From NCBI GenBank assembly GCA_024231025.1, contig JAAEQW010000256.1, forward strand, positions 2,954-66,953: a DNA stretch of 64,000 nucleotides, given 5' to 3'. The notes under the pieces are model-generated. The model made no database searches. It had not been told where the DNA came from and was given only the letters and a program-made list of their open reading frames with translations. Below are positions 37,612 to 52,610 of the stretch, piece after piece. Each line of letters opens with the position of its first letter. The first letter of the stretch is position 1. A program made the position numbers and the translations under genes. This DNA comes from Candidatus Omnitrophota bacterium (lineage in GTDB: Bacteria; Omnitrophota; Gorgyraeia; Duberdicusellales; 4484-171).

Positions 37612-37678
37612 TTTTTCACTCTATATATTAATAAAGAAGAGCAAAAATCAATAAAGATTGTTTTATAAGGAGGCAAAT

Positions 37679-38830
37679 ATGAGGAAAAAAACCTCTAGAT
37701 CCCCTAAAAAAACTAGGACAGTTAATAAGAAGGTTACAAAAAAAAGCACTATCGCCAAACCTGCTAAGAAGAAAATTGTCAAAAAAGTTGCTAAGAAAAA
37801 AGTCACCAAAAAGAAAACGGTAAAAAAGACCATTCAAAGAGTAGCAAAAAAAACAACTAAAAAACTCATTAAAAAGGTTACCGAGAGAACGGGGTTGCGT
37901 AATTCTTTTTCTTCTCGAACAGCTAAAGATGTAGCTGCAACCGTTGCTTCAATTGTTTCTATTCCAAAAAATAAGGAGTATTCTGAAGAAATGAAGTTTT
38001 CTCCTGAAGCTGCTGTTGCTGCTAGCGAAGTAGCTCCCCAAAAGATGCAGTACAACTTGCCTTTGAAGTATGCCGATGACCGCATAGTTTTGCTGGTTCG
38101 CGATCCGTGGTGGATGTTTACTTATTGGGATATTTCACCGAACAGAATCGATGGTGTATTAGCAACTATAGACAGTGATGAGCGTAACAATTTAAAATGG
38201 ATTGTGCGTGCGTATGAGCTAAGCGGTGTAAAAAAGTTTAATGGCCGCAATGCGAACCTTTCTTTTGATACGGAAATATACCTTGATGGGGGAAGTTGGT
38301 ATATCAATACTAATCAGCCCGGGGGTCTTTGGTGTATCGAGATAGGGTTGATTAGTGATTTAGGAAATTTCTATCCAGTCGCTCGCTCTAATATTGTTGG
38401 CAGTCCGCGTTTTGGTATTTCTTCTAATATTGATGAGCATTGGGCATCAGAAGACGATGATCACTTTAAAATACTAGGAATTTATGATTTAGGTAGAAGC
38501 TCAATGGAGCGTAAGCGTAAGTTTGAGGAAATTGTAAAAAAGACAGTTTCTTCTCCTCTTGCTTCATGGGGGATGAGCTCTCCCGGTGGAATAAAGAAGG
38601 AGGACAAGTTTTTTCTAGAAGTATGGACAGAAGTTATTTTGCATGGTCGTACTATGGCTGATGCTAAAGTTAACGTTGATGGAAAAGAAGTTACCTTAAG
38701 AGACGATGGAACATTCACTCAAAGATATGCATTGGTGGAGGGTGATTTTGAGTATAAAGTTGTTGGTGTTTCTAAAAATAAAAAGCACAAAATAAAAAAA
38801 ACCCCAGCGGTAAAGAGATATAACAAATAA
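37679..38830 (+). CDS. DUF4912-like protein with an N-terminal histone H1-like Lys/Ala-rich tail
   Basis: Roughly 70-residue KKxxKK low-complexity tail (KKTRTVNKKVTKKSTIAKPAKKKIVKKVAKKKVTKKKTVKK), then a globular domain of the kind commonly encoded next to GH57 genes. Confidence 0.5.
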   Translation: MRKKTSRSPKKTRTVNKKVTKKSTIAKPAKKKIVKKVAKKKVTKKKTVKKTIQRVAKKTTKKLIKKVTERTGLRNSFSSRTAKDVAATVASIVSIPKNKEYSEEMKFSPEAAVAASEVAPQKMQYNLPLKYADDRIVLLVRDPWWMFTYWDISPNRIDGVLATIDSDERNNLKWIVRAYELSGVKKFNGRNANLSFDTEIYLDGGSWYINTNQPGGLWCIEIGLISDLGNFYPVARSNIVGSPRFGISSNIDEHWASEDDDHFKILGIYDLGRSSMERKRKFEEIVKKTVSSPLASWGMSSPGGIKKEDKFFLEVWTEVILHGRTMADAKVNVDGKEVTLRDDGTFTQRYALVEGDFEYKVVGVSKNKKHKIKKTPAVKRYNK

Positions 38831-38831
38831 G

Positions 38832-40415
38832 ATGGAAAAAGGTTATCTTTCTTTAGTTCTGCATGCCCACCTTCCTTTTGTTCGTCATCCTGAATTTGAA
38901 GACTTCTTAGAAGAACGATGGCTTTTTGAAGCGCTCAGCGAAACTTATATGCCATTGCTTGAGATGCTTGAGGGCCTAACGGCTGATGGCGTTGATTTTT
39001 GTTTTACTTTAAACCTCTCGCCTTCTCTTTGTAGCATGCTTGATGACGGGCTCCTAAAAGATCGTTACCTGCGCCATCTAAATAATATGATTACTCTTTG
39101 CGAGGGAGAGATCGATCGACATCGCTTTGATCCAAGCTTTCATAGGGTAGCGCTTATGTATTACCATCGTTTTACTCGCACGAGAGATAAATTTGTAAAT
39201 AATTATGACCGTAATCTTATTGCGGAGTTTAAAAAATATCAAGATCGCGGTGTTTTAGAAATTATTACTTGTGGAGCAACGCATGGCTTTTTGCCGCTTT
39301 TACGAGTTAACAAAGAGGCCGCTAGAGCACAAATCAGAGTTGGTGCAAATTCCTATAGAAAGTTTTTTGGTACAAATCCAAAAGGAATTTGGCTTCCTGA
39401 GTGTGGATATTATGAGGGAGTTGATAAATTTTTAAAAGAGGAAGGCATAAAATATTTTTTAACCGAAACTCATGGGATAGTTTTTGCCGATCCTCGCCCC
39501 AAGTTTGGTGTTTATTCCGGGTACTACACTAAGAATAAAGTGGGCGTATTCGCCAGAGACAGCGAATCTTCTAAGAGTGTTTGGTCGGCAGAAGAGGGTT
39601 ATCCTGGTGATTACAATTATCGTGAATATTATCGTGATGTTGGGTTTGATGCCGACTATGATTATATAAAACCTTATATTTCTCCGTGTGGAACGCGAAT
39701 TTTTACCGGTATAAAGTATTATCGCATTACCGGCCCTACCTTAGAGAAACAGCCGTATAATCCTGAGATAGCAGCAAAAACTGCCGCAGATCATGCCGGC
39801 AATTTTATGTTTAATCGCCAAAAGCAGATCGAGCACTTAAGTCCTATGCTAGATAGAAAGCCGATTATTGTGTGCCCTTATGATGCGGAGTTGTATGGGC
39901 ATTGGTGGTTTGAGGGAGTGCAATGGCTAAATTTCTTAATTCGTAAAATATGTTATGACCAGAACACAATAAAACTTACTACTCCTTCAAGGTACTTACA
40001 GATTTATCCGAAAAATCAAGTAGTTACTCCAGCGGCGTCAAGCTGGGGGTATAAAGGTTATTACGAAGTGTGGCTCAATGGTTCTAATGATTGGATTTAC
40101 CCGCACCTGCATCGCGCGCAAGATATGATGGGTGAAGCGATTAAGGAGCATGGTTCGGGCGGCGATGTCAAAGACAGAGTCCTAAACCAGATGGTTAGAG
40201 AACTTCTCCTGGCGCAGTCTAGTGATTGGGCATTTATCATGAAGACCGGCACTTTTACTGAATATGCCAGCAAGCGCACAATTACCCATTTAGAACGATT
40301 TCATCTTTTAAAAAGTTATCTTGATAGAGGAAGCTATGATTTTGAGGTTATTGAGGATATTGAAGAAAAAGACAACCTTTTCCCCGAAATCACTTATTCT
40401 GTTTATTGCCCCTAA
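38832..40415 (+). CDS. Glycoside hydrolase family 57 enzyme, branching-enzyme type (1,4-alpha-glucan branching enzyme)
   Basis: N-terminus GYLSLVLHAHLPFVRHPE is typical of GH57 branching enzymes. Confidence 0.75.
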   Translation: MEKGYLSLVLHAHLPFVRHPEFEDFLEERWLFEALSETYMPLLEMLEGLTADGVDFCFTLNLSPSLCSMLDDGLLKDRYLRHLNNMITLCEGEIDRHRFDPSFHRVALMYYHRFTRTRDKFVNNYDRNLIAEFKKYQDRGVLEIITCGATHGFLPLLRVNKEAARAQIRVGANSYRKFFGTNPKGIWLPECGYYEGVDKFLKEEGIKYFLTETHGIVFADPRPKFGVYSGYYTKNKVGVFARDSESSKSVWSAEEGYPGDYNYREYYRDVGFDADYDYIKPYISPCGTRIFTGIKYYRITGPTLEKQPYNPEIAAKTAADHAGNFMFNRQKQIEHLSPMLDRKPIIVCPYDAELYGHWWFEGVQWLNFLIRKICYDQNTIKLTTPSRYLQIYPKNQVVTPAASSWGYKGYYEVWLNGSNDWIYPHLHRAQDMMGEAIKEHGSGGDVKDRVLNQMVRELLLAQSSDWAFIMKTGTFTEYASKRTITHLERFHLLKSYLDRGSYDFEVIEDIEEKDNLFPEITYSVYCP

Positions 40416-40416
40416 T

Positions 40417-41997
40417 ATGAGCAAATCACCTACAAAAATTATATTCATCTGGCATATGCATCAGCCTTGCTATCGCCATCCGAGTCGGAACTATTATATT
40501 TTGCCGTGGGTAAGACTTCATGGTGTAAAAGATTATTACGGAATGGCAAAGGTGGTGGAAAAATTTGAAGAAACAAGAGTTGTTTTTAACTACAGCGGCA
40601 TACTCCTAGAGCAGCTCACAGATTATGTAGAAAATCAAGCCCAGGATTATTATGGAATACTAAGCTTAAAGAATCCAGCAAAACTCACAAAAGAAGAAAA
40701 AAGTTTTATAATCGAAAGGTTTTTTTCGATAAATTTTGATCGGCACATAAAACCAAATCCTCGTTTTTTACAACTACATACTAAAAAGGCTTCGCATAAG
40801 CAAAATTTTACACTAAAAGATATCGGTGATTTACAGGCGATTTTCAATTTATGCTGGTTTCATCCTTATACAATAAAAAAAGATAAAAATTTAAAAGCAC
40901 TTATCAAGAAAGGTAAAGATTACACCCAGCAGGACCGACGTTATATTATTGATAAGCACTATCAAGTATTAAAGGAAATTTTTCCTTTATTGAAAAAACT
41001 AATAGCACGTAATCAAGTAGAACTAACAATTACGCCACATCACCATCCGATAATGCCGTTAATCTATGATACCGATGTTTTAAAGGAAATTCCTTATCTA
41101 AAACGTCCAGCATTGCGCTTCTATTCTCCGGATGATTGCCACTGGCACCTCAATCGCGCCAAAGAGGTTTTTCGACATATTTTTGCTGTTGATCCGAATG
41201 GGAGTTGGCCATCAGAAGGTAGCGTGTCGGAGAACGTATTGGATATATATGCTAAGGAAGGATTTAATTGGGTTGGTACTGATGAGGCGATCCTGTTTAA
41301 AAGTTTATCTAATGAATCCGTGCCGTATGACATGATCAAAAACCAGCGGCATATGATTTATTCACCATATAATTTTAGAGGAGTAAATATATTTTTTAGA
41401 GACAGAAACCTTTCTGATGCCATGGGTTTTACTTATTCCGGTTGGGATGATTCTGTTTTTGCTGCCAATGATTTATTGGAACATTTTAAAAGAACACACA
41501 ACCATATAAAAAATCTCTCACAACAGCGCGTGATAACGATAATTATGGATGGTGAAAACGCATGGGAGTACTATAATAATAGTGGAGTAGAATTTTTAGA
41601 AACACTTTATTCGTCATTAGAAAAAACTTCTATTCTTACAACTTCTACCCCCTCAAAATTTTTACAAAAAGGGTCCAGTAAGCATCTAGAGCGCTTATCG
41701 CCGGGGTCGTGGATTAATGGTGATTTTGGAGTATGGGTTGGCTCTAAGGAAAATAATCGCTATTGGGATATTTTGCGAAAAATAAAAGATACAATAGATC
41801 GTTCAAAAACCGATAAAGAAACTTTACAAAAAGTGAAAGATTACTTCCATCTTATTGAAGGCAGTGATTGGTATTGGTGGAACACATTTGAAGATTTTAG
41901 CGGAGAGTTTAAAAACATATTTTTTACATACGCTCAAGAGATATATGCTCTTTTGAACAAAAAAATACCACTTTATTTGACAGGAAGAAATGGGTAA
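40417..41997 (+). CDS. Glycoside hydrolase family 57 enzyme (second paralog)
   Basis: N-terminus IIFIWHMHQPCYRH. Start taken at the ATG at 40417, right after the previous stop; the tracker start at 40321 overlaps the upstream gene. Confidence 0.7.
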   Translation: MSKSPTKIIFIWHMHQPCYRHPSRNYYILPWVRLHGVKDYYGMAKVVEKFEETRVVFNYSGILLEQLTDYVENQAQDYYGILSLKNPAKLTKEEKSFIIERFFSINFDRHIKPNPRFLQLHTKKASHKQNFTLKDIGDLQAIFNLCWFHPYTIKKDKNLKALIKKGKDYTQQDRRYIIDKHYQVLKEIFPLLKKLIARNQVELTITPHHHPIMPLIYDTDVLKEIPYLKRPALRFYSPDDCHWHLNRAKEVFRHIFAVDPNGSWPSEGSVSENVLDIYAKEGFNWVGTDEAILFKSLSNESVPYDMIKNQRHMIYSPYNFRGVNIFFRDRNLSDAMGFTYSGWDDSVFAANDLLEHFKRTHNHIKNLSQQRVITIIMDGENAWEYYNNSGVEFLETLYSSLEKTSILTTSTPSKFLQKGSSKHLERLSPGSWINGDFGVWVGSKENNRYWDILRKIKDTIDRSKTDKETLQKVKDYFHLIEGSDWYWWNTFEDFSGEFKNIFFTYAQEIYALLNKKIPLYLTGRNG

Positions 41998-44071
41998 AGT
42001 TTATTTTTTATTCGGTATTCATAATCATCAACCAGTAGGTAATTTTGATCATGTTTTTGAATACGCCTATAAGCGTTGTTATTTTCCTCTTCTAGAGACT
42101 CTCGCCAATTTTCCTAAAATAAAATTTAGTGTACACATCAGCGGTCCCCTTTATGATTGGATCTTAAAAAATCGTAAAGAGTATGTAAGTCTTTTAAAGG
42201 AGATGGTTACTCGCGGCCAGGTTGAGATAATCAGCGGCGGATATTACGAACCGATTTTGCCTTTAATTTCCGATCGTGACAAAAAAGCTCAAATCCAAAA
42301 AATGAATGATTTCATTTCAAAAGAATTTAATTGCACCGCTAGTGGTCTTTGGCTTGCCGAGCGGGTTTGGGAGCCAAACTTACCAGCGATAATTAATCCT
42401 TGTGGATTAGATTATACTTTTTTAGATGATACTCATTTCCGTTTTGCCGGAATCAACAAGAATGAATTCACAGGTTATTATACAACTGAGGACCAGGCTT
42501 TTGGTTTGAAGATTTTTCCAATCAGCAAAGCGCTAAGATATAAAATACCTTTTTCAAGCGCGCAAGAGGGGATCGATTTGCTTAATTCGTTTGCTAGCGA
42601 AGAAGATGTGCTAGTTACATTTTTTGATGATGGAGAAAAATTTGGTCTTTGGCCGAATACTTATGATTGGGTGTATGAGAAGGGCTGGCTTAAAACATTT
42701 CTAACGTATCTTAGCGATTCATTAACTATTGAGACGATTAAGCCGAGTGAGGCAGCACTTAAATTTTCTTCCAGCGGAATAGTTTATTTGCCTACCGCCT
42801 CCTATGAGGAGATGGGGGAGTGGGTTTTATCTGCGGATAGTTTTAATACCTATGACAGATTGAATAACTTTTTAAAGAATCAAAATAAATTTGAAGAATT
42901 CAAAAATTTTGTGAGGGCAGGATTTTTTAGAAATTTTAATCGCAAATATCCGCGCCTTAATTACATGCACAAAAGAATGCTTTCGGTTAGCAAAAAGCTA
43001 CATGCGTATTTGAAAAATGGTGATAAGGCATTTACGAATTTATTTAAGGCCCAAACTAATTGCAGCTATTGGCACGGTGTTTTTGGGGGATTTTATTTGG
43101 GTCATATTCGCGGGGCAGTATATGAAAATCTTATTTGTGCCTTAAATCAACTGGATAAGAAAATTCAAAAGCACGATTTGGTAGTGGAGGAAGAAGATAT
43201 TGATTTAGATGGCGTAAAAGAAACAATTGTAAAAAATAAAAAAATGATCTGTTGTTTTTCACGTAAGGGTGGCACTCTTCTTGAATGTAGCCTGCGTAAT
43301 CCAGCAATCAATTTAACGAACACAATTACTCGTACGGTTGAATCCTATCATAAAAAAATTAAAGAAAATGTGAATGTTGATGCCTCTGTTGCTTCAATCC
43401 ATGATATAGTGGTTCAGAAAGACAAGGATTTAGATAAATTCCTGATTTACGATAATTATGAAAAAGTTAGCCTGATTGATCACCGCTTAGATAAAGATAT
43501 TACGATTGCCGATTTTAATACCGGAAATAAAATCACCACGTTTAGCGATAAAAATTATAACCTTTTAATAAAAAAAAGCACAAAGCAAGCTTCCCTAAAG
43601 TATAAATACGATTCGCAAACAATAAGTTTTACCAAAGAAGTAATCTTAAAAGGGGCATCTTCTTTCGCTGTTGAATATTCACTTAACAATTATTTAGAAA
43701 ATTGTGATTTTGGCGTTGAGTTTAATTTATTTTTACCTTCATTGAAAGATATTGTTGCTGTATCAGAAGGAAAATCTTCCAAAAGCGCTGGTCCTAAAGG
43801 CGTTACGATCAAAAAAGAAAATAAAAAAATATCTTTAAATGAGCCCAAAGTGTTTGATAGCTGTTGTTCGTTTGTTATAATAGGTAATCATAAAAGAATA
43901 AGTTTAGAGTTTGGTTGCGAAGACGCCTGTGTATTTACGATGCCGCTTTATTCGGTATCCTCATCTGAAGCGGGATTCGAAAAGGCGTATCAGCAATTGT
44001 CAGTTCTTTTTAAATTTTCAGGGGAGCGTAAAAAAATTCATTTTACCTTTAAGGTAAAAAAAGGGGAGTAA
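41990..44071 (+). CDS. Glycoside hydrolase family 57 enzyme (third paralog; alpha-amylase / 4-alpha-glucanotransferase-like)
   Basis: N-terminus VYFLFGIHNHQPVGNF. 693 aa with a C-terminal extension. Confidence 0.7.
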   Translation: MGKVYFLFGIHNHQPVGNFDHVFEYAYKRCYFPLLETLANFPKIKFSVHISGPLYDWILKNRKEYVSLLKEMVTRGQVEIISGGYYEPILPLISDRDKKAQIQKMNDFISKEFNCTASGLWLAERVWEPNLPAIINPCGLDYTFLDDTHFRFAGINKNEFTGYYTTEDQAFGLKIFPISKALRYKIPFSSAQEGIDLLNSFASEEDVLVTFFDDGEKFGLWPNTYDWVYEKGWLKTFLTYLSDSLTIETIKPSEAALKFSSSGIVYLPTASYEEMGEWVLSADSFNTYDRLNNFLKNQNKFEEFKNFVRAGFFRNFNRKYPRLNYMHKRMLSVSKKLHAYLKNGDKAFTNLFKAQTNCSYWHGVFGGFYLGHIRGAVYENLICALNQLDKKIQKHDLVVEEEDIDLDGVKETIVKNKKMICCFSRKGGTLLECSLRNPAINLTNTITRTVESYHKKIKENVNVDASVASIHDIVVQKDKDLDKFLIYDNYEKVSLIDHRLDKDITIADFNTGNKITTFSDKNYNLLIKKSTKQASLKYKYDSQTISFTKEVILKGASSFAVEYSLNNYLENCDFGVEFNLFLPSLKDIVAVSEGKSSKSAGPKGVTIKKENKKISLNEPKVFDSCCSFVIIGNHKRISLEFGCEDACVFTMPLYSVSSSEAGFEKAYQQLSVLFKFSGERKKIHFTFKVKKGE

Positions 44072-44077
44072 AATTCC

Positions 44078-44216
44078 AAATAACAAATCCCAAATCACAA
44101 ACAAACCACAATTCTAAATGTTCAAAATAACAAATAGAATCTATGATATTGTTTTGGATATTAAATTATTTGAATTTGGACATTGTTTGTAATTTGTTTT
44201 TTGTAACTTGTAATTT
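44078..44216. repeat. Palindromic AT-rich intergenic element, copy 1. Its CA-rich left arm and TG-rich right arm are inverted copies of the arms at 44505-44650, so the two copies bracket the DUF2934 gene
   Basis: Left arm CCAAATAACAAATCCCAAATCACAAACAAACCACAATTC. The right arm GAATTTGGACATTGTTTGTAATTTG is the reverse complement of 44525-44548. Confidence 0.7.
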
Positions 44217-44504
44217 TTGATAATACGAGGTAAAGAAAAAAAGGGGAGGTTTGAGATGCCGTTTCTAAAAAGGAAAAAAACAAAAGTGAAAGTATCCGCT
44301 AAAATCAAAGCGGCCGTGAAGAAAAGTGCAAAAATAGCTGCTAAAAAAACAATAGCTAAGAAGCCAAAGCTTGATGAAGCTCGTCTAAACCAAATGATTA
44401 AAGAAAGAGCTTATTATATTTGGGAAGAAAGGCAACGACCCAATGGGCAAGATTCTGATATCTGGGCGCAAGCTGAAAAAGATATGCATAAGAATATCAA
44501 ATAA
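44217..44504 (+). CDS. DUF2934-like small basic protein
   Basis: Lys/Ala-rich N-terminus and C-terminal motif RAYYIWEERQRPNGQDSDIWAQAE. Shine-Dalgarno AAGGGGAGGTTT. Confidence 0.5.
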   Translation: MIIRGKEKKGRFEMPFLKRKKTKVKVSAKIKAAVKKSAKIAAKKTIAKKPKLDEARLNQMIKERAYYIWEERQRPNGQDSDIWAQAEKDMHKNIK

Positions 44505-44650
44505 CAAATCACAAATTTCAAAATACAAACAATGTCCAATTGCCAAAAATCCAATGAACAAAAGGGTATTATTTTATTTTGTTTGATATTTTAGTTATTT
44601 GGAATTGTGGTTTGTTTGTGATTCGTGTATTGTGTATTGTAATTTTTTGA
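44505..44650. repeat. Palindromic AT-rich intergenic element, copy 2
   Basis: ATTTGGAATTGTGGTTTGTTTGTGATT (44600-44626) is the reverse complement of 44092-44118 with one mismatch. The same AAGGGGAGGTTT Shine-Dalgarno module follows. Confidence 0.7.
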
Positions 44651-44680
44651 CAGAGCGTACTTAAATAAGGGGAGGTTTAA

Positions 44681-45070
44681 ATGAACGCCAAAAAGAAAAA
44701 AGAGATCATTTTAACTACCGACAATAAAATTGGTAAATTGGAAGAGGTTAGCGCAGCGTTAAAGGCAGCCGACATCAATTTAACTAGCATTTGTGCTTAT
44801 TCTATGGAGGAGAAGGCAATTTTTTATATTACTGTGTGTGGTAGCGAAAAAGCCACGCAGGTTCTTTCAGGAATTGGCAGTGTTGAAACCAAAGAAGTTA
44901 TTGTCGTTGAAATGCCAAATGAAGTTGGTCAACTCCAAAGTTTAGCAGCTAAATTAAAAGATGCAAGCGTTGATCTTACTTATATTTATGGCACTACTTC
45001 AGGGGATGGGATAGCTCGGGTTGTACTTTCTTCCAGTGATAATGACAAGGCCCTAGAAGTTATTGCTTAA
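44681..45070 (+). CDS. Small tandem ACT-domain protein
   Basis: Two roughly 60-aa beta-alpha-beta-beta-alpha-beta-like halves (ILTTDNKIGKLEEVSAALKAADINL...; VVEMPNEVGQLQSLAAKLKDASVDL...). Confidence 0.45.
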   Translation: MNAKKKKEIILTTDNKIGKLEEVSAALKAADINLTSICAYSMEEKAIFYITVCGSEKATQVLSGIGSVETKEVIVVEMPNEVGQLQSLAAKLKDASVDLTYIYGTTSGDGIARVVLSSSDNDKALEVIA

Positions 45071-45078
45071 TTTTTACA

Positions 45079-46284
45079 ATGCAGATTGAGTTCCCTCATT
45101 ATTTTTTATGGGGTGCGGCCACATCCAGCTATCAGACTGAAGGGGGCAACTTAAATTCTGATTGGAGTGACTGGGAAAAAAGCAGAAAGCTCCAGCCAGC
45201 CGCTGACGCCTGCAAGCATTATCAACAGTTTCCGCAGGATTTTCAATTAGCATCCGACCTCGGTTTAAAGGCATTAAGATTTTCTATAGAGTGGTCGAGA
45301 ATTTGTCCGCGCCCAGGCGAGGTTTGCCAACGCGAATTAAGCCACTATAAAGCTGTAATCAAATCTTTAAAAGATAATGGATTGAAACCGTTTCTTACGT
45401 TGCATCACTTTACTAATCCGAGGTGGTTTGCCCATAGCGGCGGTTGGCTAAATTCCAAAAATATTGATTATTTTTTGCAATATCTTTCTGTAACTGCGCA
45501 GGCCTTAAAGGAAGATGTTGATTATTGGTTAATTTTTAATGAACCGCTAGTTTACTTATTTAATGGCTACATAAAGGGTATTTGGCCGCCTGGGAAAACT
45601 TCTTTGCCCATCGCTATAAGAGCGTTCAAAAACATTATATCTGCATACAAAACAGGTTATTGGGAAATAAAAAATATATGTAAGCATAATCCTTCTGTTG
45701 CGCAAGTGTCTTTGGCAAAACATATGATAGCCTTCTCACCTTGTCCAAATTCTAAATTGGGCGGATTATCGGCTGCACTTAGAGATAAGCTATTTAATAC
45801 ATCGCTTTGTGCCTATTTAAAGAAAAATAAATGCTTAGATTTTTTGGCGTTAAACTATTATTACAAAGAATATACCAAATTTAGCGGTCCATTAGGAGAA
45901 GAGTGCTCGCATAAGCACAAAGAGCGCAAAAATTATCTTGGTTGGAATATTTATCCGCAGGGACTTTACCAGATGCTTATAAGATCGAAGAAATTAAACC
46001 TACCGATAATGATTACCGAAAATGGCACCGCTGAGGAAAGCTCCGAAATGTATCAGGACTATATGGTAAAACACTTAAAGGCTATTGCAGATGCAATAGC
46101 TGATGGAGTAGATGTAAGAGGTTATTTTTGGTGGTCATTAATTGATAATTTTGAGTGGGATAAGGGTTTTGAGCCCCGGTTTGGTTTGGCGCATGTTGAC
46201 TATAGTACTTTTGCGAGAAAATTAAAGCCTTTTGCTTTTAGGTATGCTAAAATATGTAAAGAAAACATGATGACCTATGATTAA
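45079..46284 (+). CDS. Glycoside hydrolase family 1 beta-glucosidase
   Basis: N-terminal FLWGAATSSYQTEGG, acid/base motif LIFNEP, and nucleophile motif ITENG. Confidence 0.85.
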   Translation: MQIEFPHYFLWGAATSSYQTEGGNLNSDWSDWEKSRKLQPAADACKHYQQFPQDFQLASDLGLKALRFSIEWSRICPRPGEVCQRELSHYKAVIKSLKDNGLKPFLTLHHFTNPRWFAHSGGWLNSKNIDYFLQYLSVTAQALKEDVDYWLIFNEPLVYLFNGYIKGIWPPGKTSLPIAIRAFKNIISAYKTGYWEIKNICKHNPSVAQVSLAKHMIAFSPCPNSKLGGLSAALRDKLFNTSLCAYLKKNKCLDFLALNYYYKEYTKFSGPLGEECSHKHKERKNYLGWNIYPQGLYQMLIRSKKLNLPIMITENGTAEESSEMYQDYMVKHLKAIADAIADGVDVRGYFWWSLIDNFEWDKGFEPRFGLAHVDYSTFARKLKPFAFRYAKICKENMMTYD

Positions 46285-47050: not shown

Positions 47051-47088
47051 ACGATGCTTTTTCCGATTTCATTTACCGTGCTGACTCG

Positions 47089-48132
47089 TTGCACCTAATC
47101 TTTTTGCCAATTAAAGAAGATCTCGCAAAGGGGGGCAAATTTATAAGTGATTTAAGCGAAAGAGAACTTCTTACTAGGGAGAAAATAAGAGTAATTATCA
47201 ATGAGTTTAGCCAAGGACAAAAGCTAGATTGCGAAAAGACCAAAGCACTAAAGCATCCGGTATATGCAACAATACCTAAATCTGACTCACCGCACTACCA
47301 TAAAGTTTTTAAAAGAATTGCTCGCCAAATTGGAGAAGTAAGGCTAGGCGTTGCGTTAGGGAGTGGTGGTTCCTATGGTTTTGCCCATATTGGTGTGTTG
47401 GAAGTATTAGAAGAGAATAATATAGATATCGATATCATATGTGGCTCAAGCATGGGGTCGTTGGTTGCTGCGATGTGGGCGGCGGGATTTAGCGTCGATA
47501 AGATGAAGCAAGTTGCGGCTAATTTCGGAAAAAAATTAAACTTGTTTTCTTTTCCGGGGTTCTATTTTCCTTTTAAAGGAATTATTAAAGCTAAACGTTC
47601 GGAGAAAATTTATAAGGAAATTTTTGGTGGTCTAACATTTCATGATTTAAAACATGATCTGAAATTAGCTTCATTTGATTTTTATAAGAGAAAGGCAGCT
47701 GTTTTAGATGAGGGATTGCTTTATAAGGCAGTAGCTGCGAGTTGTGCTATTCCAGGTGTGTTTGAGCCGGTAAAAATGAAAAAAAACCTCATGCTGGATG
47801 GCGGAGTATTAAACCCTTTACCTAGTAAAATTCTTTTAAACTACGGTGTGAATAAAATAATTGCTATAAATGTAACCCCACCGTTGGAGAAAGTTGCTCT
47901 TCGTCAGAAAATCAAAGGTAAATGGCATATTTTTGATTTTATTTTTGGCACAATCGAGACTATGCAACGTGAATTTATTGATGCGGCACTAAAAGTGTCT
48001 GATGTTGTGATCCATCCTGTTTTTGAGGCGACCGATTGGGCCCATTTTGAAAATGTCGATGAATATATTGAAGCAGGAAGAAAAGCTGCCCTCGGAAAAC
48101 TCAATGACATAAAGGAGTTAAGTGAGCGATAA
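47089..48132 (+). CDS. Patatin-like phospholipase
   Basis: Oxyanion hole GSGGSYGFAHIG, serine lipase motif GSSMGS, and the catalytic Asp region (LMLDGGVLNPLP). The listed start is TTG. Confidence 0.75.
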   Translation: MHLIFLPIKEDLAKGGKFISDLSERELLTREKIRVIINEFSQGQKLDCEKTKALKHPVYATIPKSDSPHYHKVFKRIARQIGEVRLGVALGSGGSYGFAHIGVLEVLEENNIDIDIICGSSMGSLVAAMWAAGFSVDKMKQVAANFGKKLNLFSFPGFYFPFKGIIKAKRSEKIYKEIFGGLTFHDLKHDLKLASFDFYKRKAAVLDEGLLYKAVAASCAIPGVFEPVKMKKNLMLDGGVLNPLPSKILLNYGVNKIIAINVTPPLEKVALRQKIKGKWHIFDFIFGTIETMQREFIDAALKVSDVVIHPVFEATDWAHFENVDEYIEAGRKAALGKLNDIKELSER

Positions 48133-48852
48133 ATGAAAGCACTTATATCAACTTTACTAATTTTTTTTGCAGTTACTTTTAATTCCTTTTGTGCCCAAGA
48201 AGGCATCAAGGCGCGTTTTGAAGGGAAAGATACCTTAACTTATTCTGTTTATTTTAATGGATTTTTTTCTGGCAAAATTAAATGGGTTTATGTCGGCACC
48301 CAAAAAATTTCCGGTAAACAAGTTGATGTGCTGCATCTTGATTCCGACACTAAGATTTTTTCTTTTTTGGACATGACAAGCAAAGAGAAGATTTTCCTCG
48401 ATAGTCAAACTCACTTGCCGATCAAAGTCCAACGGGATATTGTGCTATTTGGCAAAGACGAAAAAATCGAGGAATTTTACAATCAAGATGAGGGCTTTGT
48501 AAGAATAACTCGCAGTACCGCGCAAGAAGTTCCACAGGAGATATTACGCCAAGACGCCCCAATTCATAATATTCTGGCACTGCTTTACTTTTTTCCTAGC
48601 GATGTTGATTTAGATAAAAAAAATAAAGCAGTTTACAATCTTCCTACACGTAAGGTGACAATTACAACTAGAGGCACGCGCAAGCTGCGCCTTGGCAAAG
48701 AAAAGGTAGAAGCTTATTTTCTTGTTGGTAAAGGGGCAAAGAGATTTAATCTTTGGCTGGATAAAAAACGCAAAACCCCTCTGCGTTTAGAGTTTTTATT
48801 TCCGGTTGGAAAAGTGACCATTGTTAAAGATTTACTCAATGAGCAAGAGTGA
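48133..48852 (+). CDS. Secreted hypothetical protein
   Basis: Signal peptide (MKALISTLLIFFAVTFNSFCAQEG) followed by a beta-rich domain. No confident family call. Confidence 0.4.
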   Translation: MKALISTLLIFFAVTFNSFCAQEGIKARFEGKDTLTYSVYFNGFFSGKIKWVYVGTQKISGKQVDVLHLDSDTKIFSFLDMTSKEKIFLDSQTHLPIKVQRDIVLFGKDEKIEEFYNQDEGFVRITRSTAQEVPQEILRQDAPIHNILALLYFFPSDVDLDKKNKAVYNLPTRKVTITTRGTRKLRLGKEKVEAYFLVGKGAKRFNLWLDKKRKTPLRLEFLFPVGKVTIVKDLLNEQE

Positions 48853-49854
48853 GTTTTTACCGCCAAAAGGGTCTTTTTCAGTTAATTTGTTATAAGGGTC
48901 AATTACCCATGAGTCACCGGCAACAAATTTGTAACGGTATTCACCTTTACTGAGAGGAAGATTTATACTCCAAATATCATTGCCAATCTTTTTTAACTTA
49001 TAGCTATTGTTCTTTTGCCATCCGTTAAAGTCACCCACAACATATACGTCAGACAAGTCTTTATCGCGATAAAATAGTGGAGCCCAGCTGGCTAAGCGGG
49101 TCATTGCCTCTATTTCATCGGTGAGGTTTTTGTAATCTTGCCCACCGCGAGAATCCGCTTTGTATTGGAAAATATCTTTTCCCGATGAAGCAGCTTCTCT
49201 TAAATGAACATTTGCCCTTATTGATGTTTTCAGTAAAAGATCGCCCAGATGTTTTTGCACTCGTTCCATAAATTCTTTAACAAAACGAGAACGCTTATCT
49301 ACCTGGGTAAATAAGTAAAAAGGTGCCGGAGCATGCCCTTGGAATTCTTTAAGCATAATTAATATGTTTTTAAGGATCTCTATCCCTCGTAAAGAAAAGT
49401 CACAGGTGCCGATCGGCACAAGAGAGTACTTACTCGCGGCCAGGGCGTTTAATGTGATCATTCCCAAATTAGGGGGACAATCTAATATGCAGTAGTCAAA
49501 ATCAGATGATATTTTTTTTAAAAGAGAAGAAAGTAGGGTAAATCGATCATCTCTTTTTAACAGCTCCTGTTCCATTGTTGCCAATCCAAGAGATGACGCG
49601 ATGAAGTAAAAGTTATCCGATACGGTGTCGTATAGCTTATCATCGGGATACAAATCGTCATGACAGAGTTTTACTAAGGCATCGGTTATTGTGTAGGTAT
49701 TATCTTTGTTAAGAGAGAAAGTGGCGTGTGCCTGTGGGTCAAGATCGATAAGCAATGTTTTGTGGCCCTTCTTGCTTAAGCCAGCGGCTAAATTTACAGC
49801 AGTGATAGTTTTGCCACAGCCACCTTTTTGGTTGATCACCGAAATTGTTTTCAT
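48832..49854 (-). CDS. ParA/MinD-type P-loop ATPase fused to a C-terminal CBM48 (AMPK-beta-type) glycogen-binding module
   Basis: Deviant Walker A (KGGCGKTITAVNLAAG) and ParA core (LLIDLDPQAHAT). The C-terminal ~85 aa are a classic CBM48/GBD (VYVVGDFNGWQKNNSYKLKK...W...LPLSKGEYRYKFVAGDSWVIDPYN). Confidence 0.8.
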   Translation of the reverse strand: MKTISVINQKGGCGKTITAVNLAAGLSKKGHKTLLIDLDPQAHATFSLNKDNTYTITDALVKLCHDDLYPDDKLYDTVSDNFYFIASSLGLATMEQELLKRDDRFTLLSSLLKKISSDFDYCILDCPPNLGMITLNALAASKYSLVPIGTCDFSLRGIEILKNILIMLKEFQGHAPAPFYLFTQVDKRSRFVKEFMERVQKHLGDLLLKTSIRANVHLREAASSGKDIFQYKADSRGGQDYKNLTDEIEAMTRLASWAPLFYRDKDLSDVYVVGDFNGWQKNNSYKLKKIGNDIWSINLPLSKGEYRYKFVAGDSWVIDPYNKLTEKDPFGGKNSLLLIE

Positions 49855-49866
49855 TTACTCCCCCTT

Positions 49867-50529
49867 TTAAGTAGGTAAATTTTCTTCTAAAAAAATATCT
49901 TTCATTAAAACCCAATTTTGGGTTTTGTTTTCAGGATAGAAATAAATAGTAACTTGATTTACCTTGTGTAAGTTTGTATTTTGTAAATCAACTTTTTTAA
50001 ACTCTATAGGAATTTTTGTAAAAGAACGAGTTTCTTTGGTGATAGTCATTTGCAGTGGATTCTTTGAGTTAGAGAAAAATCGATTATCTTTTGCTACAAC
50101 ATCTATTTTAAAGGGAAAATCACCTTTTTTCAAGCGGATAAAAAGTGATCTTTCTTTAAGGTTTACAGGTTTTTTAAACCTTATTTTTAGGCCTATTTTC
50201 TCATTGTTAGTGACGGCAAAGTAAATTGCCGATGATTTTTTCTCTACATTGCCGATGAATTCAATTTTGGCTAGTGCATGATTAACTAGAAGTGATGTTT
50301 TTGCTAGCTTAGTTAGGGGGGCTTTTCTATTTAAAACTATAAGTTCGTATTTTGAATGCAAAAAATATATACCGACGACTAAAGTGATCGTGCCCAAAAT
50401 GATAGCGGATATTAGAAGAATAGGTTTTTTGTGTTTCTTTTCTTCCTTAGGTGGGGTGAAAAAAGTTTTTTTTATTCTTTGTGAGTCCAAATAGCTATAG
50501 GCTACGGTTGCGCTGGTGCGTTTTTTCAT
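49867..50529 (-). CDS. Membrane-anchored hypothetical protein, co-transcribed upstream of the ParA-CBM48 gene (candidate partner/adaptor)
   Basis: Basic N-terminus, a single TM helix (ILLISAIILGTITLVVGIYFL), and a roughly 170-aa beta-rich domain. 12-bp gap to the next gene. Confidence 0.45.
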   Translation of the reverse strand: MKKRTSATVAYSYLDSQRIKKTFFTPPKEEKKHKKPILLISAIILGTITLVVGIYFLHSKYELIVLNRKAPLTKLAKTSLLVNHALAKIEFIGNVEKKSSAIYFAVTNNEKIGLKIRFKKPVNLKERSLFIRLKKGDFPFKIDVVAKDNRFFSNSKNPLQMTITKETRSFTKIPIEFKKVDLQNTNLHKVNQVTIYFYPENKTQNWVLMKDIFLEENLPT

Positions 50530-50620: not shown

Positions 50621-51625
50621 ATGAAACAGGCATTATTCTATAAAAAGAAAAACGATGACATTTTAGAGTGTTATTTGTGCGCTCACAACTGCTTGATTGC
50701 TGATTCGAAAACAGGGTTGTGCGGAGTCCGCAAAAACATTGAGGGAGTTCTGTATAGTTTAAATTACGCAAAGGTTGTTGCTGCTGCTATTGATCCTATT
50801 GAGAAGAAACCTCTTTTTCATTTTTTGCCAAAAAGCCTGGCCTATTCGATAGCTTGTGTTGGTTGTAATTTTCGGTGTGGGTTTTGTCAGAATTGGCAGA
50901 TTTCACAAACAAAAGAGATAAGAGGTAATTGTTACAATTTAACAGTGGAAAAAATAGTAAAGAATGCAGTAGACAATAAATGCTCTAGCATTGCTTACAC
51001 TTACACCGAACCTACCGTTTACTTTGAATTTGCTTATGATTGTTGCAAGCTTGCAAAAGAAAATAAGCTTTCTAACGTTTTTGTTACGAATGGTTATACT
51101 GGCAAAAGCGCAATAGAGAGGATTGCGCCTTTTCTTGATGCGGCTAATATTGATTTGAAATCATTTAGCAATGATTTTTATCAAAAAACATGCAAAGCGT
51201 CATTGGCCCCAGTGTTAGATACAATTACCCTTATGAAGCAGTTAGGCGTTTGGGTTGAGATAACAACCTTAATCGTTCCGGGCCTTAATGATAGTAGCGA
51301 AGAACTGTCTGATATTGCATCTTTTATTGCAAATTTAGATAAAAATATACCGTGGCATATTTCTCGTTTTCATCCGGATTATAAGTTTTCGCAATCGGAG
51401 GCGACCCCGTTAGCTACGCTAAATCGTGCCTTTGATATTGGCAAAAAGAAAGGGTTAAATTTTATTTATATCGGTAATATTATCGCTAGTAATAAGCAAA
51501 ATACTTATTGTTCGAATTGTCGTGAATCACTTATAGAGAGGGTTGGTTTTTCAGTTGTAGAAAACAATTTAGAGGGTGATAAGTGTAAATATTGCTCAAA
51601 TCTTGTTGCCGGAATTTGGGAATAG
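50621..51625 (+). CDS. AmmeMemoRadiSam system radical SAM enzyme
   Basis: Family-typical N-terminus (CYLCAHNCLIADSKTGLCGVRKN) preceding the CxxxCxxC radical SAM cluster (CVGCNFRCGFCQNW). Confidence 0.75.
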   Translation: MKQALFYKKKNDDILECYLCAHNCLIADSKTGLCGVRKNIEGVLYSLNYAKVVAAAIDPIEKKPLFHFLPKSLAYSIACVGCNFRCGFCQNWQISQTKEIRGNCYNLTVEKIVKNAVDNKCSSIAYTYTEPTVYFEFAYDCCKLAKENKLSNVFVTNGYTGKSAIERIAPFLDAANIDLKSFSNDFYQKTCKASLAPVLDTITLMKQLGVWVEITTLIVPGLNDSSEELSDIASFIANLDKNIPWHISRFHPDYKFSQSEATPLATLNRAFDIGKKKGLNFIYIGNIIASNKQNTYCSNCRESLIERVGFSVVENNLEGDKCKYCSNLVAGIWE

Positions 51626-52585: not shown

Positions 52586-52610
52586 ATTATAAGGATTGCA
52601 ATTCCTTATA
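52586..52610. promoter_or_regulatory. Perfect 9-bp inverted repeat TTATAAGGA-N7-TCCTTATAA abutting the -35 of the downstream promoter (operator candidate)
   Basis: Read directly from the sequence. -35 ttgaca at 52612-52617, -10 tactat at 52635-52640, in-frame GTG at 52647. Confidence 0.4.

What the first reader, a model, noticed from the sequence alone, without database searches (positions are those of the whole stretch)
48832..50529. ParA/MinD-type ATPase fused to a CBM48 glycogen-binding module, with a membrane partner, beside the GH57 glucan cluster
The 340-aa protein on the minus strand combines a complete ParA/Soj-like deviant Walker A ATPase with an unmistakable C-terminal CBM48 / AMPK-beta glycogen-binding domain. 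It is co-oriented with, and 12 bp downstream of, a single-TM hypothetical protein (49867-50529). That pairing resembles ATPase/adaptor pairs that position cargo, such as McdA/McdB for carboxysomes and ParA-like systems for chemoreceptor arrays or PHB granules. The pair sits next to three GH57 alpha-glucan enzymes, a GH1 glucosidase and a DUF4912 protein. A ParA-family ATPase that binds alpha-glucan directly would be an obvious way to tether, space or segregate glycogen-like granules along the nucleoid or membrane. I am not aware that such a system has been described.
Basis: partly seen in the sequence, partly recalled or inferred. Interest (0 to 1): 0.85.

Follow-up and report, generated by a model that had tools for sequence, protein, structure and literature searches.

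The report
Glycogen-binding ParA ATPase with membrane partner
A ParA-type positioning ATPase fused to a glycogen-binding module, paired with its own membrane-anchored partner, defines an undescribed multi-phylum subfamily that most likely organises glycogen inside the cell.

Summary
Window 48832-49854(-) encodes a 340-aa Soj/ParA-type ATPase with intact catalytic motifs. It is fused to a CBM48 (AMPK-beta-type) glycogen-binding module whose sugar-contact residues are conserved. It lies 12 bp downstream of a co-oriented single-TM protein (49867-50529).

The fusion is not an artefact. More than 120 homologs at 45-65% identity exist, and 43 independent genomic loci carry it (Omnitrophota, Planctomycetota, Myxococcota, Nitrospirota and others). 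These form one ParA clade (92% bootstrap).

No fusion locus has a ParB (0/43, against 17/41 plain ParA loci). None of 72,556 plasmids carries the fusion. Alpha-glucan genes are enriched nearby (13/43 vs 0/41).

The membrane partner occupies the -1 position in 19/19 loci of the two clades nearest the window. It has a conserved cytosolic N-terminal helix, one TM helix and a CBM-like jelly-roll domain. In more distant clades the partner is cytosolic and carries a ParB-type "LGRGL" ParA-binding peptide.

Best reading: a ParA system whose ATPase grips glycogen directly. Granule positioning itself remains inference. Searches of the held paper library and two ParA/MinD reviews found no prior description. 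Verdict: a new variant of a known kind, of high interest.

The parts
48832..49854 (-). ParA-CBM48 fusion gene (340 aa plus stop)
   Evidence: ORF. Pfam AAA_31/CbiA plus AMPK1_CBM/CBM_48, all above gathering cutoffs. AlphaFold model with pLDDT 88.9 and pTM 0.89. The identical protein is in NCBI as 'AAA family ATPase [Candidatus Omnitrophica bacterium]'.
49096..49854 (-). Soj/ParA-type ATPase domain (aa 1-253), including the deviant Walker A NQKGGCGKT (aa 8-16, nt 49807-49833)
   Evidence: Foldseek best hits are Soj/ParA: TM-score 0.89-0.92 on the target, 30-35% identity. phmmer to PDB ParA/Soj gives E = 2.5e-35 to 4e-24. K10, K15, T16, D37, D39 and D125 are each 43/43 conserved, and R188 is 42/43.
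48835..49089 (-). CBM48 / AMPK-beta-type glycogen-binding module (aa 256-340)
   Evidence: PF16561 40.1 bits, PF02922 26.1 bits. It aligns to AMPK beta CBM structures. W279, W316, Y308 and D319 are each 43/43; K/R309 is 39/43; N/D334 is 41/43. On plasmids this region hits only GlgB and an alpha-amylase.
49855..49866 (-). 12-bp intergenic spacer with Shine-Dalgarno AAGGGGGAG; the two genes form one operon
   Evidence: Sequence read directly. In homologous loci the gap is -4 to +66 bp.
49867..50529 (-). Partner gene: a 220-aa bitopic membrane protein
   Evidence: No Pfam or NCBIfam hit. The family has 99 representatives at 50% identity. It is always at -1, co-oriented. Model pLDDT 88.1.
50455..50499 (-). 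Partner N-terminal cytosolic motif (aa 11-25, Y-x-Y-L-D-S-Q-R-L-K-K-T-F-F-S); candidate ParA-docking peptide
   Evidence: D15, R18, F23 and F24 are invariant in 38/38 sequences and form the most conserved block of the protein. It is predicted helical, aa 7-24. The role is inferred by analogy to the N-terminal peptides of ParB and other partner proteins.
50350..50427 (-). Partner transmembrane helix (aa 35-60)
   Evidence: Mean Kyte-Doolittle hydropathy 2.72 over 19 aa. Flanking charge is +4.2 on the N side and +1.2 on the C side, and the N side is more positive in 31/38 sequences, which favours N-in/C-out. Helix 35-60 in the model.
49882..50271 (-). Partner C-terminal beta-jelly-roll domain (aa 87-216) with a CBM-like fold; probably periplasmic
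37658..46284 (+). Associated alpha-glucan gene cluster (context only, not the same operon): DUF4912, GH57 branching-enzyme type, GH57, GH57 4-alpha-glucanotransferase type, DUF2934, ACT, GH1
   Evidence: Pfam. The same cluster lies near the pair in L001 and L004, and a different glucan cluster flanks it on both sides in L002.

Best explanation
The pair is a two-gene ParA-type spatial-organisation module whose ATPase binds alpha-glucan (glycogen) directly.

Shown:
- The 340-aa protein belongs to a distinct, single-origin, multi-phylum clade of Soj/ParA ATPases.
- The catalytic residues are fully conserved.
- Each member carries a C-terminal CBM48 with conserved sugar-contact residues.
- The clade is never paired with ParB.
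- Alpha-glucan genes are enriched nearby.
- Each subclade has its own adjacent partner gene.

Inferred mechanism:
1. ATP drives formation of a sandwich dimer. The dimer sits on nucleoid DNA through the conserved Soj-type basic patch. It presents two CBM48 modules, which gives avid binding to glycogen particles and so tethers them.
2. The partner's conserved N-terminal cytosolic peptide docks at the dimer interface, as the N-terminal peptides of ParB, McdB and MinE do. It triggers ATP hydrolysis, so the ATPase monomerises and lets go.
3. In the window's clade the partner is anchored in the inner membrane, with a CBM-like domain probably in the periplasm. Release or recruitment would then happen at the membrane.
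4. In Planctomycetota and other phyla the partner is cytosolic.

Net effect: ATP-controlled placement, spacing or inheritance of glycogen relative to the nucleoid and the membrane.
For: Architecture.

Conservation over 43 loci: Walker A/A'/B residues 43/43; CBM48 W279, W316, Y308, D319 each 43/43; K/R309 39/43; N/D334 41/43.

DNA-contact positions: R188 is 42/43. It aligns to the conserved Soj/ParA 'D-x-R' arginine, taken as the equivalent of CcParA R195. Position 217, taken as the CcParA R224 equivalent, is K/R in 36/43.

Single clade: 46/84 sampled ParAs, 92% NJ bootstrap.

Not a DNA-partition system: ParB at 0/43 fusion loci vs 17/41 controls, p = 6e-7. The fusion is absent from 72,556 plasmids.

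Alpha-glucan link: GH57, DUF4912, GH77 or a GT5-like gene within 10 kb at 13/43 vs 0/41 loci, p = 9e-5. The arrangements are independent: glucan genes flank the pair on both sides in L002, and GH57 is in the same operon in group B.

Partner: -1, same strand, in 19/19 group A and B loci, with gaps from -80 to +66 bp. Groups A and B are related by profile-profile comparison (94.8% probability, E = 5e-8). The N-terminal peptide is the most conserved block.

Group C +1 partners carry the ParB-type box LGRGL-x-D-[FV]-S-H-[LV]-F-L-S. 14/17 genuine ParBs have this box, and among non-ParB ORFs it occurs in only 6/1682, three of which are these partners.

Literature: N-terminal charged peptides are the general way partners dock on and stimulate A/D ATPases (PMC10241942, PMC12462528).
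Against: No experiment or complex model links the partner peptide to the ATPase.

In canonical systems the activator sits on the cargo. Here the cargo-binding module is on the ATPase, and the partner is in the membrane with its large domain probably outside the cytoplasm. A classical cargo-chases-gradient ratchet therefore does not follow directly.

The window's own protein has His at position 217, where most of the family has K/R. A single Arg-to-Glu change in M. xanthus ParA (R238E) abolishes nonspecific DNA binding, although I did not map which residue R238 corresponds to. Nucleoid binding is thus least certain for this very protein.

The alpha-glucan neighbourhood is present at only about 30% of loci. 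Within closely related Omnitrophota it is partly shared synteny rather than independent evidence.

Many Omnitrophota are thought to be very small cells (my own knowledge, not tested here), where active granule positioning seems less necessary.
Confidence: 0.5

Rival explanations
1. Glycogen-sensing regulator. The CBM48 acts as in the AMPK beta subunit, as a sensor of glycogen status rather than a cargo handle. Glycogen binding would tune ParA dimerisation or ATPase activity. The real cargo would be the membrane partner (and whatever envelope complex it belongs to), or another target.
For: The closest solved relatives of the module are AMPK beta CBMs. Their regulatory role is established knowledge on my part, not tested here. 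The partner, not glycogen, occupies the conserved 'partner' gene position. In the window's subclade the CBM follows the ATPase after only about 4 residues and is modelled as one rigid body (pTM 0.89), which would suit allosteric coupling.
Against: Across the clade the linker ranges from 4 to 252 residues. That argues for a flexible tether rather than a fixed allosteric contact. No second cargo is identifiable.
Confidence: 0.18
2. Organiser of a trans-envelope alpha-glucan or maltodextrin uptake or export machine, analogous to BcsQ in cellulose secretion or to the membrane-adaptor/P-loop pairs of polysaccharide export. The membrane partner's periplasmic CBM-like domain and an outer-membrane barrel would handle the glycan outside the cytoplasm. 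ParA-CBM48 would couple the machine to cytoplasmic glucan.
For: The partner is a bitopic membrane protein with a CBM-type jelly-roll that is probably periplasmic. In group B the operon is AlgE-like outer-membrane barrel (8/11 loci), GH57, partner, fusion, small 3-TM protein. BcsQ is a ParA/MinD ATPase, and TIGR03371 gives a sub-threshold hit (70 bits).
Against: No membrane glycosyltransferase, synthase or ABC/Wzx-type exporter is conserved with the pair. The AlgE-like barrel is absent from group A (0/8) and group C (0/24). The group C partners are cytosolic. BcsQ is the most distant of the structural matches, at 15% identity.
Confidence: 0.15
3. An ordinary chromosome- or plasmid-partition ParA that happens to carry an accessory domain. 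This is what the public annotation implies ('chromosome partitioning protein').
For: The ATPase is most similar to chromosomal Soj/ParA. R188 is conserved. Databases label it 'chromosome partitioning protein'.
Against: ParB is present at 0/43 fusion loci but at 17/41 plain ParA loci from the same scan. No ParB is found anywhere in the 64-kb window. The fusion is absent from plasmids. The adjacent conserved genes are non-ParB partners.
Confidence: 0.05
4. The C-terminal beta-sandwich is a CBM48-like fold reused for protein-protein contacts and does not bind carbohydrate.
For: Ig-like beta-sandwiches are often reused in this way. The Pfam scores are modest (40 and 26 bits).
Against: The sugar-platform residues W279 and W316 are conserved in 43/43 fusions, K/R309 in 39/43 and N/D334 in 41/43, across several phyla at 29-65% overall identity. 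Alpha-glucan genes are enriched nearby. Standalone CBM48 genes sit next to glycogen-synthase-type genes in related loci.
Confidence: 0.06

Closest known systems
Chromosomal Soj/ParA (type Ib ParA; e.g. B. subtilis and T. thermophilus Soj, M. xanthus ParA)
   Same: Same fold and closest sequence (30-35% identity, TM-score about 0.9). It shares the deviant Walker A with the signature lysine, the Walker A' and B aspartates, and the Soj 'D-x-R' DNA-contact arginine. Some clade members have partners with a ParB-type LGRGL N-terminal peptide.
   Different: It carries an extra C-terminal CBM48. It has no ParB at any of 43 loci. It forms its own clade. Its partner is a membrane protein or a degenerate ParA-like protein rather than a CTPase clamp on parS.
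McdA/McdB carboxysome positioning system
   Same: A ParA-type ATPase dedicated to a non-DNA, metabolic cargo, encoded next to a fast-evolving, family-specific partner that has no Pfam family.
   Different: McdA is only about 22% identical. In McdAB the partner binds the cargo, whereas here the ATPase itself carries the cargo-binding module. The partner here is membrane-anchored. The cargo would be a polysaccharide rather than a protein shell.
CBM48 modules of the AMPK beta subunit, of GlgB/isoamylase, and of plant PTST starch-targeting proteins
   Same: It passes the same Pfam families (PF16561, PF02922) above their cutoffs, and the same W/K/W/N sugar-contact residues align. As with PTST proteins (my own knowledge), a non-catalytic CBM48 is joined to a scaffolding or organising protein.
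   Different: It is fused to a P-loop positioning ATPase. I found this architecture described in none of the papers searched.
BcsQ (with BcsR and BcsE) of bacterial cellulose secretion
   Same: A ParA/MinD-family ATPase tied to polysaccharide biology and to a membrane complex, with a small dedicated partner.
   Different: Only 15% identity. TIGR03371 scores 70 bits against a cutoff of 157.85. No synthase genes are adjacent. BcsQ has no CBM.
PhaM-type tethering of PHB storage granules to the nucleoid (my own knowledge, not tested here)
   Same: The same proposed logic: a protein bridges a carbon-storage granule and nucleoid DNA so that granules are distributed to daughter cells.
   Different: PhaM is not an ATPase and is unrelated in sequence. 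The polymer and its binding module are different.

Membership tests
ParA/MinD (A/D) P-loop ATPase family | Deviant Walker A KGGxGK[ST] with the signature N-terminal lysine | tested here: met
   NQKGGCGKT at aa 8-16. K10, G11, G12, K15 and T16 are each 43/43 conserved. AAA_31 scores 153.5 bits and CbiA 72.3 bits.
ParA/MinD (A/D) P-loop ATPase family | Walker A' and Walker B aspartates, and the Soj/MinD fold | tested here: met
   D37, D39 and D125 are each 43/43. Foldseek TM-score 0.89-0.92 to Soj/ParA.
ParA/MinD (A/D) P-loop ATPase family | ATP-dependent sandwich dimerisation and partner-stimulated ATP hydrolysis | not testable with these tools
   This needs biochemistry or a multimer prediction. 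Only monomer models could be made.
ParABS chromosome/plasmid partition system | An adjacent ParB (CTPase/HTH protein with the GERRxRA box) acting as partner | tested here: not met
   A ParB HMM and box search found 0/43 at fusion loci and 17/41 at control loci. There is none in the 64-kb window. The fusion is absent from plasmids.
ParA (nucleoid-binding branch) | Conserved basic residues for nonspecific DNA binding (CcParA R195 and R224, PMC7229837) | tested here: inconclusive
   The first position (R188) is 42/43 conserved. The second (position 217) is K/R in 36/43 but His in the window's protein, with R213 and R219 adjacent.
MinD | A C-terminal amphipathic membrane-targeting helix, with MinC/MinE partners | tested here: not met
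   The C-terminus is the CBM48 beta-sandwich. TIGR01968 scores 40.7 bits against a cutoff of 212.9. MinD structures are only about 20% identical.
CBM48 / AMPK-beta glycogen-binding domain | The profile match is above the curated threshold | tested here: met
   PF16561 scores 40.1 bits against 26.8. PF02922 scores 26.1 bits against 22.4. AMPK beta CBM structures match at E = 9e-6.
CBM48 / AMPK-beta glycogen-binding domain | Sugar-contact residues (AMPK beta1 W100, K126, W133, N150; residue numbering from my own knowledge) | tested here: met
   These align to W279, K309, W316 and N334. Conservation is 43/43, 39/43 (K/R), 43/43 and 41/43 (N/D).
CBM48 / AMPK-beta glycogen-binding domain | Actual binding of glycogen, amylopectin or cyclodextrin | not testable with these tools
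   This requires a pull-down or ITC experiment.
McdAB | A McdB-type partner and a carboxysome (BMC) gene context | tested here: not met
   No BMC or carboxysome genes appear in any locus. McdA is 21-23% identical.
BcsQ (cellulose biosynthesis) | An equivalog-level match and a bcs operon context | tested here: not met
   TIGR03371 scores 70.3 bits against a cutoff of 157.85. No bcs genes are nearby.
BY-kinase (Wzc/CapB-type tyrosine autokinase) | A match to the eps_fam model | tested here: not met
   TIGR01007 scores 42.1 bits against a cutoff of 108.05. The C-terminus is a CBM48 rather than the C-terminal tyrosine cluster that, from my own knowledge, marks these kinases.

The most novel reading that the evidence does not exclude
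This would be the first dedicated, ATP-driven system for organising a polysaccharide storage granule in prokaryotes. A phylum-spanning ParA subfamily would hold glycogen directly through its own CBM48 and be switched by lineage-specific partners: membrane-anchored in Omnitrophota, cytosolic with ParB-like peptides in Planctomycetota and others. Glycogen placement and inheritance would then be actively controlled rather than left to nucleoid exclusion.
Probability: 0.4. Interest if true: 0.85.

Novelty: new variant of a known kind. Interest (0 to 1): 0.72.

Why it matters
ParA/MinD ATPases are the general positioning machines of prokaryotic cells. The cargos listed in the papers read here are DNA, protein organelles and membrane complexes. 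A polysaccharide cargo is not among them: the two reviews checked never use the words glycogen, carbohydrate or granule.

If this family organises glycogen, it would add a new cargo class. It would also add a new design in which the cargo-binding module sits on the ATPase itself. That would make the spatial control of carbon storage directly testable.

The family also corrects a widespread annotation: 'chromosome partitioning protein' is applied to proteins that never sit with a ParB. In addition, it shows ParB-type ParA-binding peptides being used by non-ParB partners. That is useful for finding the partners of 'orphan' ParAs.

Tried and rejected
1. The word-indexed homolog search found only 2 hits for the partner. 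The exhaustive HMMER search was needed.
2. An iterated partner HMM did not reach the group B upstream proteins at E < 1e-4. Only the profile-profile comparison linked them.
3. I suspected that the ~286-330-aa downstream genes in group C were ParB. Pfam rejected this: they have no ParB domain, and two are degenerate ParA/MinD-like proteins.
4. The CBM-only homolog search was unproductive, returning 2 fragments.
5. The afdb50 fold library was unavailable, so no cultured-organism or UniProt members could be identified. Cluster look-ups returned only MAG or metagenome proteins, with generic names.
6. My eye-read promoter upstream of the partner (TTGATT-17 nt-TAATAT) fell below the scanner's threshold and is not claimed.
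8. A plasmid or phage origin was considered. No fusion occurs on plasmids. Phage records were not searched.
9. Assembly artefact: rejected.
10. A mirror-tree co-evolution test of partner against ATPase was considered but not run, because shared phylogeny alone would produce a correlation.
Full report
OBSERVATION. They are separated by 12 bp containing a strong Shine-Dalgarno sequence, AAGGGGGAG. Pfam places AAA_31 (153.5 bits) and CbiA on residues 1-227. It places AMPK1_CBM (40.1 bits against a cutoff of 26.8) and CBM_48 (26.1 against 22.4) on residues 268-338. NCBIfam gives only sub-threshold ParA, RepA, BcsQ and MinD hits, plus weak GlgB hits on the C-terminus. The C-terminal 88 residues align to solved AMPK beta1/beta2 carbohydrate-binding modules at E = 9e-6. 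They lie on the other strand, 2.5-11 kb away.

NOT AN ARTEFACT; A CONSERVED FAMILY. The identical protein is in NCBI from a Candidatus Omnitrophica MAG, on a 142,758-bp contig. More than 120 clusters of full-length ~340-aa homologs (45-65% identity) nearly all carry PF16561. A scan of GTDB species genomes returned 80 loci. Local analysis of these loci, the four loci fetched earlier and the window itself showed both domains in one ORF at 44 loci, 43 of them non-redundant. These are not only Omnitrophota. By record title they also include Planctomycetota (Planctomycetia, Pirellulales, Phycisphaerae, Sedimentisphaerales, Tepidisphaerales), Myxococcota, Thermodesulfobacteriota/Deltaproteobacteria and Rokubacteriota; a Nitrospirota locus (L028) falls in the same clade, but its CBM region lies outside the ORF. 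The ATPase-CBM linker ranges from 4 residues (the window's subclade) to 252 residues.

In a neighbour-joining tree of ATPase domains, all fusions fall in a single clade. The tree compared 43 fusions with 41 plain ParAs from the same scan. Three sequences first counted as controls sit in this clade: L022 is a fusion cut by a contig end, L028 appears frameshifted, and L036 lacks the module. Bootstrap support is 92%. The control set came from the same pattern scan and is not a complete sample of ParA diversity.

RESIDUE-LEVEL CONSERVATION. Across the 43 fusions, the deviant Walker A residues (K10, G11, G12, K15, T16), Walker A' (D37, D39) and Walker B (D125) are each 43/43 conserved. These are therefore active-type ATPases. 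In the CBM48, W279, W316, Y308 and D319 are 43/43, K/R309 is 39/43 and N/D334 is 41/43. In the alignments these match the AMPK beta sugar-contact residues. The residue numbering W100, K126, W133 and N150 is from my own knowledge.

TYPE OF ATPase. The AlphaFold model is confident (pLDDT 88.9, pTM 0.89). Its best PDB matches are chromosomal Soj/ParA proteins at 30-35% identity with target TM-scores of 0.89-0.92. These rank ahead of McdA (about 22%), MinD (about 20%) and BcsQ (15%). The protein is therefore ParA/Soj-like rather than MinD-like, and it has no C-terminal membrane-targeting helix.

Two arginines are the conserved DNA contacts of ParA, CcParA R195 and R224 (PMC7229837). The first corresponds to R188 (42/43). 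The second corresponds to position 217, which is K/R in 36/43 but His in the window's own protein, where R213 and R219 flank it. A single Arg-to-Glu change in M. xanthus ParA abolishes DNA binding. Nucleoid binding is therefore plausible for the family but uncertain for this protein.

NOT A DNA-PARTITION SYSTEM. A ParB HMM built from the control loci finds ParB at 17/41 plain-ParA loci and at 0/43 fusion loci (p = 6e-7). No ParB is found anywhere in the 64-kb window. None of 72,556 plasmids carries the fusion. On plasmids the CBM region alone hits only GlgB and an alpha-amylase. Public names for the family are just 'AAA family ATPase' or 'chromosome partitioning protein'.

THE PARTNER. The upstream protein has no Pfam or NCBIfam family. 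It does belong to a real family of about 99 representatives at 50% identity, mostly 215-240 aa. In every locus of the window's group (group A, 8/8) it sits at -1 on the same strand, with gaps of -4 to +66 bp. In a second group (group B, 11/11 loci, fusion 33-40% identical to the window's), a 186-199-aa single-TM protein occupies the same position. Profile-profile comparison relates the two over the C-terminal domain (94.8% probability, E = 5e-8).

PARTNERS IN THE DISTANT CLADES GIVE THE MECHANISTIC CLUE. Group C (24 loci, mostly Planctomycetota, Myxococcota and others) lacks the TM protein. At least nine of these loci have a conserved co-oriented +1 gene. Pfam finds no ParB domain in the +1 genes scanned. 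L019 and L030 hit ParA/MinD-type models, and the L040/L042/L069 proteins have no Pfam hit. Their N-termini read KKLGRGLEDFSHLFLS (L019), KRLGRGLADVSHVFLS (L030), KPLGRGLEDVSHLFLS (L027), R(D/N)LSEISHLFLS (L040, L042, L069) and MPRDLSEVLHYFMP (L023). LG(R/K)GL-x-AL is the N-terminal box of 14/17 genuine ParBs in my control loci. Among 1,682 other ORFs it occurs only 6 times, and three of those are these +1 proteins.

[quoted passage not shown] N-terminal charged peptides are the general docking device of A/D-ATPase partners (PMC10241942). The group B TM partners begin M(T/N)RDEIYEHLAKVYL, which shares the E-x-[YF]-x-H-L core with LGRGLEDFSHL. I therefore infer, but have not shown, that the conserved cytosolic N-terminal helix of the window's partner is its ParA-docking and ParA-stimulating element.

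LINK TO ALPHA-GLUCAN METABOLISM. GH57, DUF4912, GH77 or GT5-like genes lie within 10 kb of 13/43 fusion loci and 0/41 control loci (p = 9e-5; group A 4/8, B 5/11, C 4/24). The arrangements are independent:
- The window, L001 and L004 share one syntenic cluster.
- In L002, at 45% identity, the pair is flanked on both sides by glucan genes: GH57/DUF3536, GH77, a standalone CBM48, a GT5-like synthase, DUF4912 and GH57 upstream, and a TreT-like GT downstream.
- In group B a GH57 gene sits in the same operon.

The link is not obligatory. In L008, L012 and L021 the pair sits next to UvrD, RmuC or STAS-PilZ genes. The conserved unit is therefore the two-gene module. Group B operons also contain an AlgE-like outer-membrane barrel (8/11), a small 3-TM protein (7/11) and a ~140-aa protein (8/11).

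HOW IT MOST LIKELY WORKS. Shown: this is a ParA-clade ATPase with an intact catalytic site and an intact glycogen-binding platform. It has a dedicated adjacent partner, no ParB, and enrichment of alpha-glucan genes nearby. Inferred:
1. The ATP-bound sandwich dimer binds nucleoid DNA and displays two CBM48s. Dimerisation thereby converts weak monovalent binding into avid binding of glycogen particles.
2. The partner's N-terminal peptide docks at the dimer interface and triggers ATP hydrolysis, releasing the ATPase from DNA and lowering its grip on glycogen.
3. In the window's clade this release or recruitment happens at the inner membrane.

I give this glycogen-organisation reading a confidence of 0.5. 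The weakest points are as follows. The cargo-binding module is on the ATPase rather than on the partner. The partner's large domain probably faces the periplasm. The window's protein has His at one DNA-contact position.

The rivals are a glycogen-sensing regulator (0.18), an organiser of a trans-envelope glucan uptake or export machine, prompted by the AlgE-like barrels of group B (0.15), an ordinary partition ParA (0.05), and a non-carbohydrate role for the CBM-like domain (0.06).

COMPARISON WITH WHAT IS KNOWN, AND NOVELTY. [quoted passage not shown] It is not a member of ParABS, MinD, McdAB, BcsQ or BY-kinase systems, because a defining feature of each was tested and not met. Its C-terminal domain is a CBM48 by profile and by contact residues. 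It works most like McdAB or PpfA-type non-DNA cargo systems. Conceptually it resembles nucleoid tethering of PHB granules by PhaM and CBM48-based targeting of plant PTST proteins to starch; both comparisons rest on my own knowledge.

The paper searches found no description of a ParA-CBM48 protein or of a ParA-type system for glycogen. Two recent ParA/MinD reviews never use the words glycogen, carbohydrate or granule. The library lacks most subscription-journal papers, so absence is not proof. I rate this a new variant of a known kind, with interest 0.72.

Noticed in passing
window 46277-48132 (+), frameshift near 46972-46993: The cNMP-binding ORF (46277-47050) and the patatin ORF (47089-48132) are one 619-638-aa gene in L004 and L005. 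In the window the reading frame shifts within the overlap of the two tblastn segments, which contains a T6 run (about 46978-46983). This is either a pseudogene or an assembly indel.
   Followed up: yes
L019:4476-5462, L027:11088-11789, L030:11089-11949, L023:11094-11987, L026:11100-11960; L040:11479-13086, L042:3338-5338, L069:8810-10420, L071:11417-13411: The genes immediately downstream of the group C fusions encode non-ParB proteins. L019 and L030 hit ParA/MinD-type Pfam models; the Planctomycetota ones have no Pfam hit and a P/A-rich linker. Their N-termini carry a ParB-type ParA-binding box (LGRGL-x-D-[FV]-S-H-[LV]-F-L-S) or its second half (LSEISHLFLS). This looks like an undescribed class of ParA partners.
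   Followed up: partly
L014:6268-11856 (likewise L010, L015, L016, L020, L032): Group B operon: AlgE-like outer-membrane barrel (PF13372), GH57, TM partner, ParA-CBM48, a ~108-aa 3-TM protein, and a ~132-151-aa protein with a weak EF-Tu domain-2 hit. The role of an outer-membrane barrel in this operon is unexplained.
   Followed up: partly
L002:4176-4493 (-), L019:6337-6642 (-): Standalone ~100-aa CBM48-only proteins are encoded near the fusion. In L002 the gene sits next to a GT5-like glycogen-synthase-type gene.
   Followed up: no
window 44217-44504 (+); also L001 and L004: A small, very basic DUF2934 protein sits between the GH57 cluster and the ACT/GH1 genes. It is conserved in three group A loci. 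Its function is unknown.
   Followed up: no
window 50621-51625 (+) and 52596-53774 (+): Compared with the synteny GCD14, LpxA-like, partner, fusion seen in L001 and L004, the window has two extra genes: a radical-SAM gene directly divergent from the partner, and an AAA_14/DUF4143 ATPase.
   Followed up: no
window 54668-58822 (-): This 1384-aa ORF has internal duplications. A ~60-aa segment ending '...EALSD(K/E)QK...VK(I/V)TWTQ(G/D)SEGV(L/S)DESI' occurs twice, and a 'F(I/R)DGHET(A/F)H' motif occurs twice. No annotation was attempted.
   Followed up: no
window 40321-41997 (+): The listed TTG start of the second GH57 ORF overlaps the upstream GH57 gene by 95 nt. The Pfam match begins at residue 41, so the true start is probably the internal ATG (MSKSPTK..., about 40420).
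   Followed up: no
window 48133-48852 (+): This DUF3108 protein has an N-terminal hydrophobic segment. It converges on the fusion gene, and the 3' ends overlap by 21 nt. It is conserved at this position in L001 and L004.
   Followed up: no
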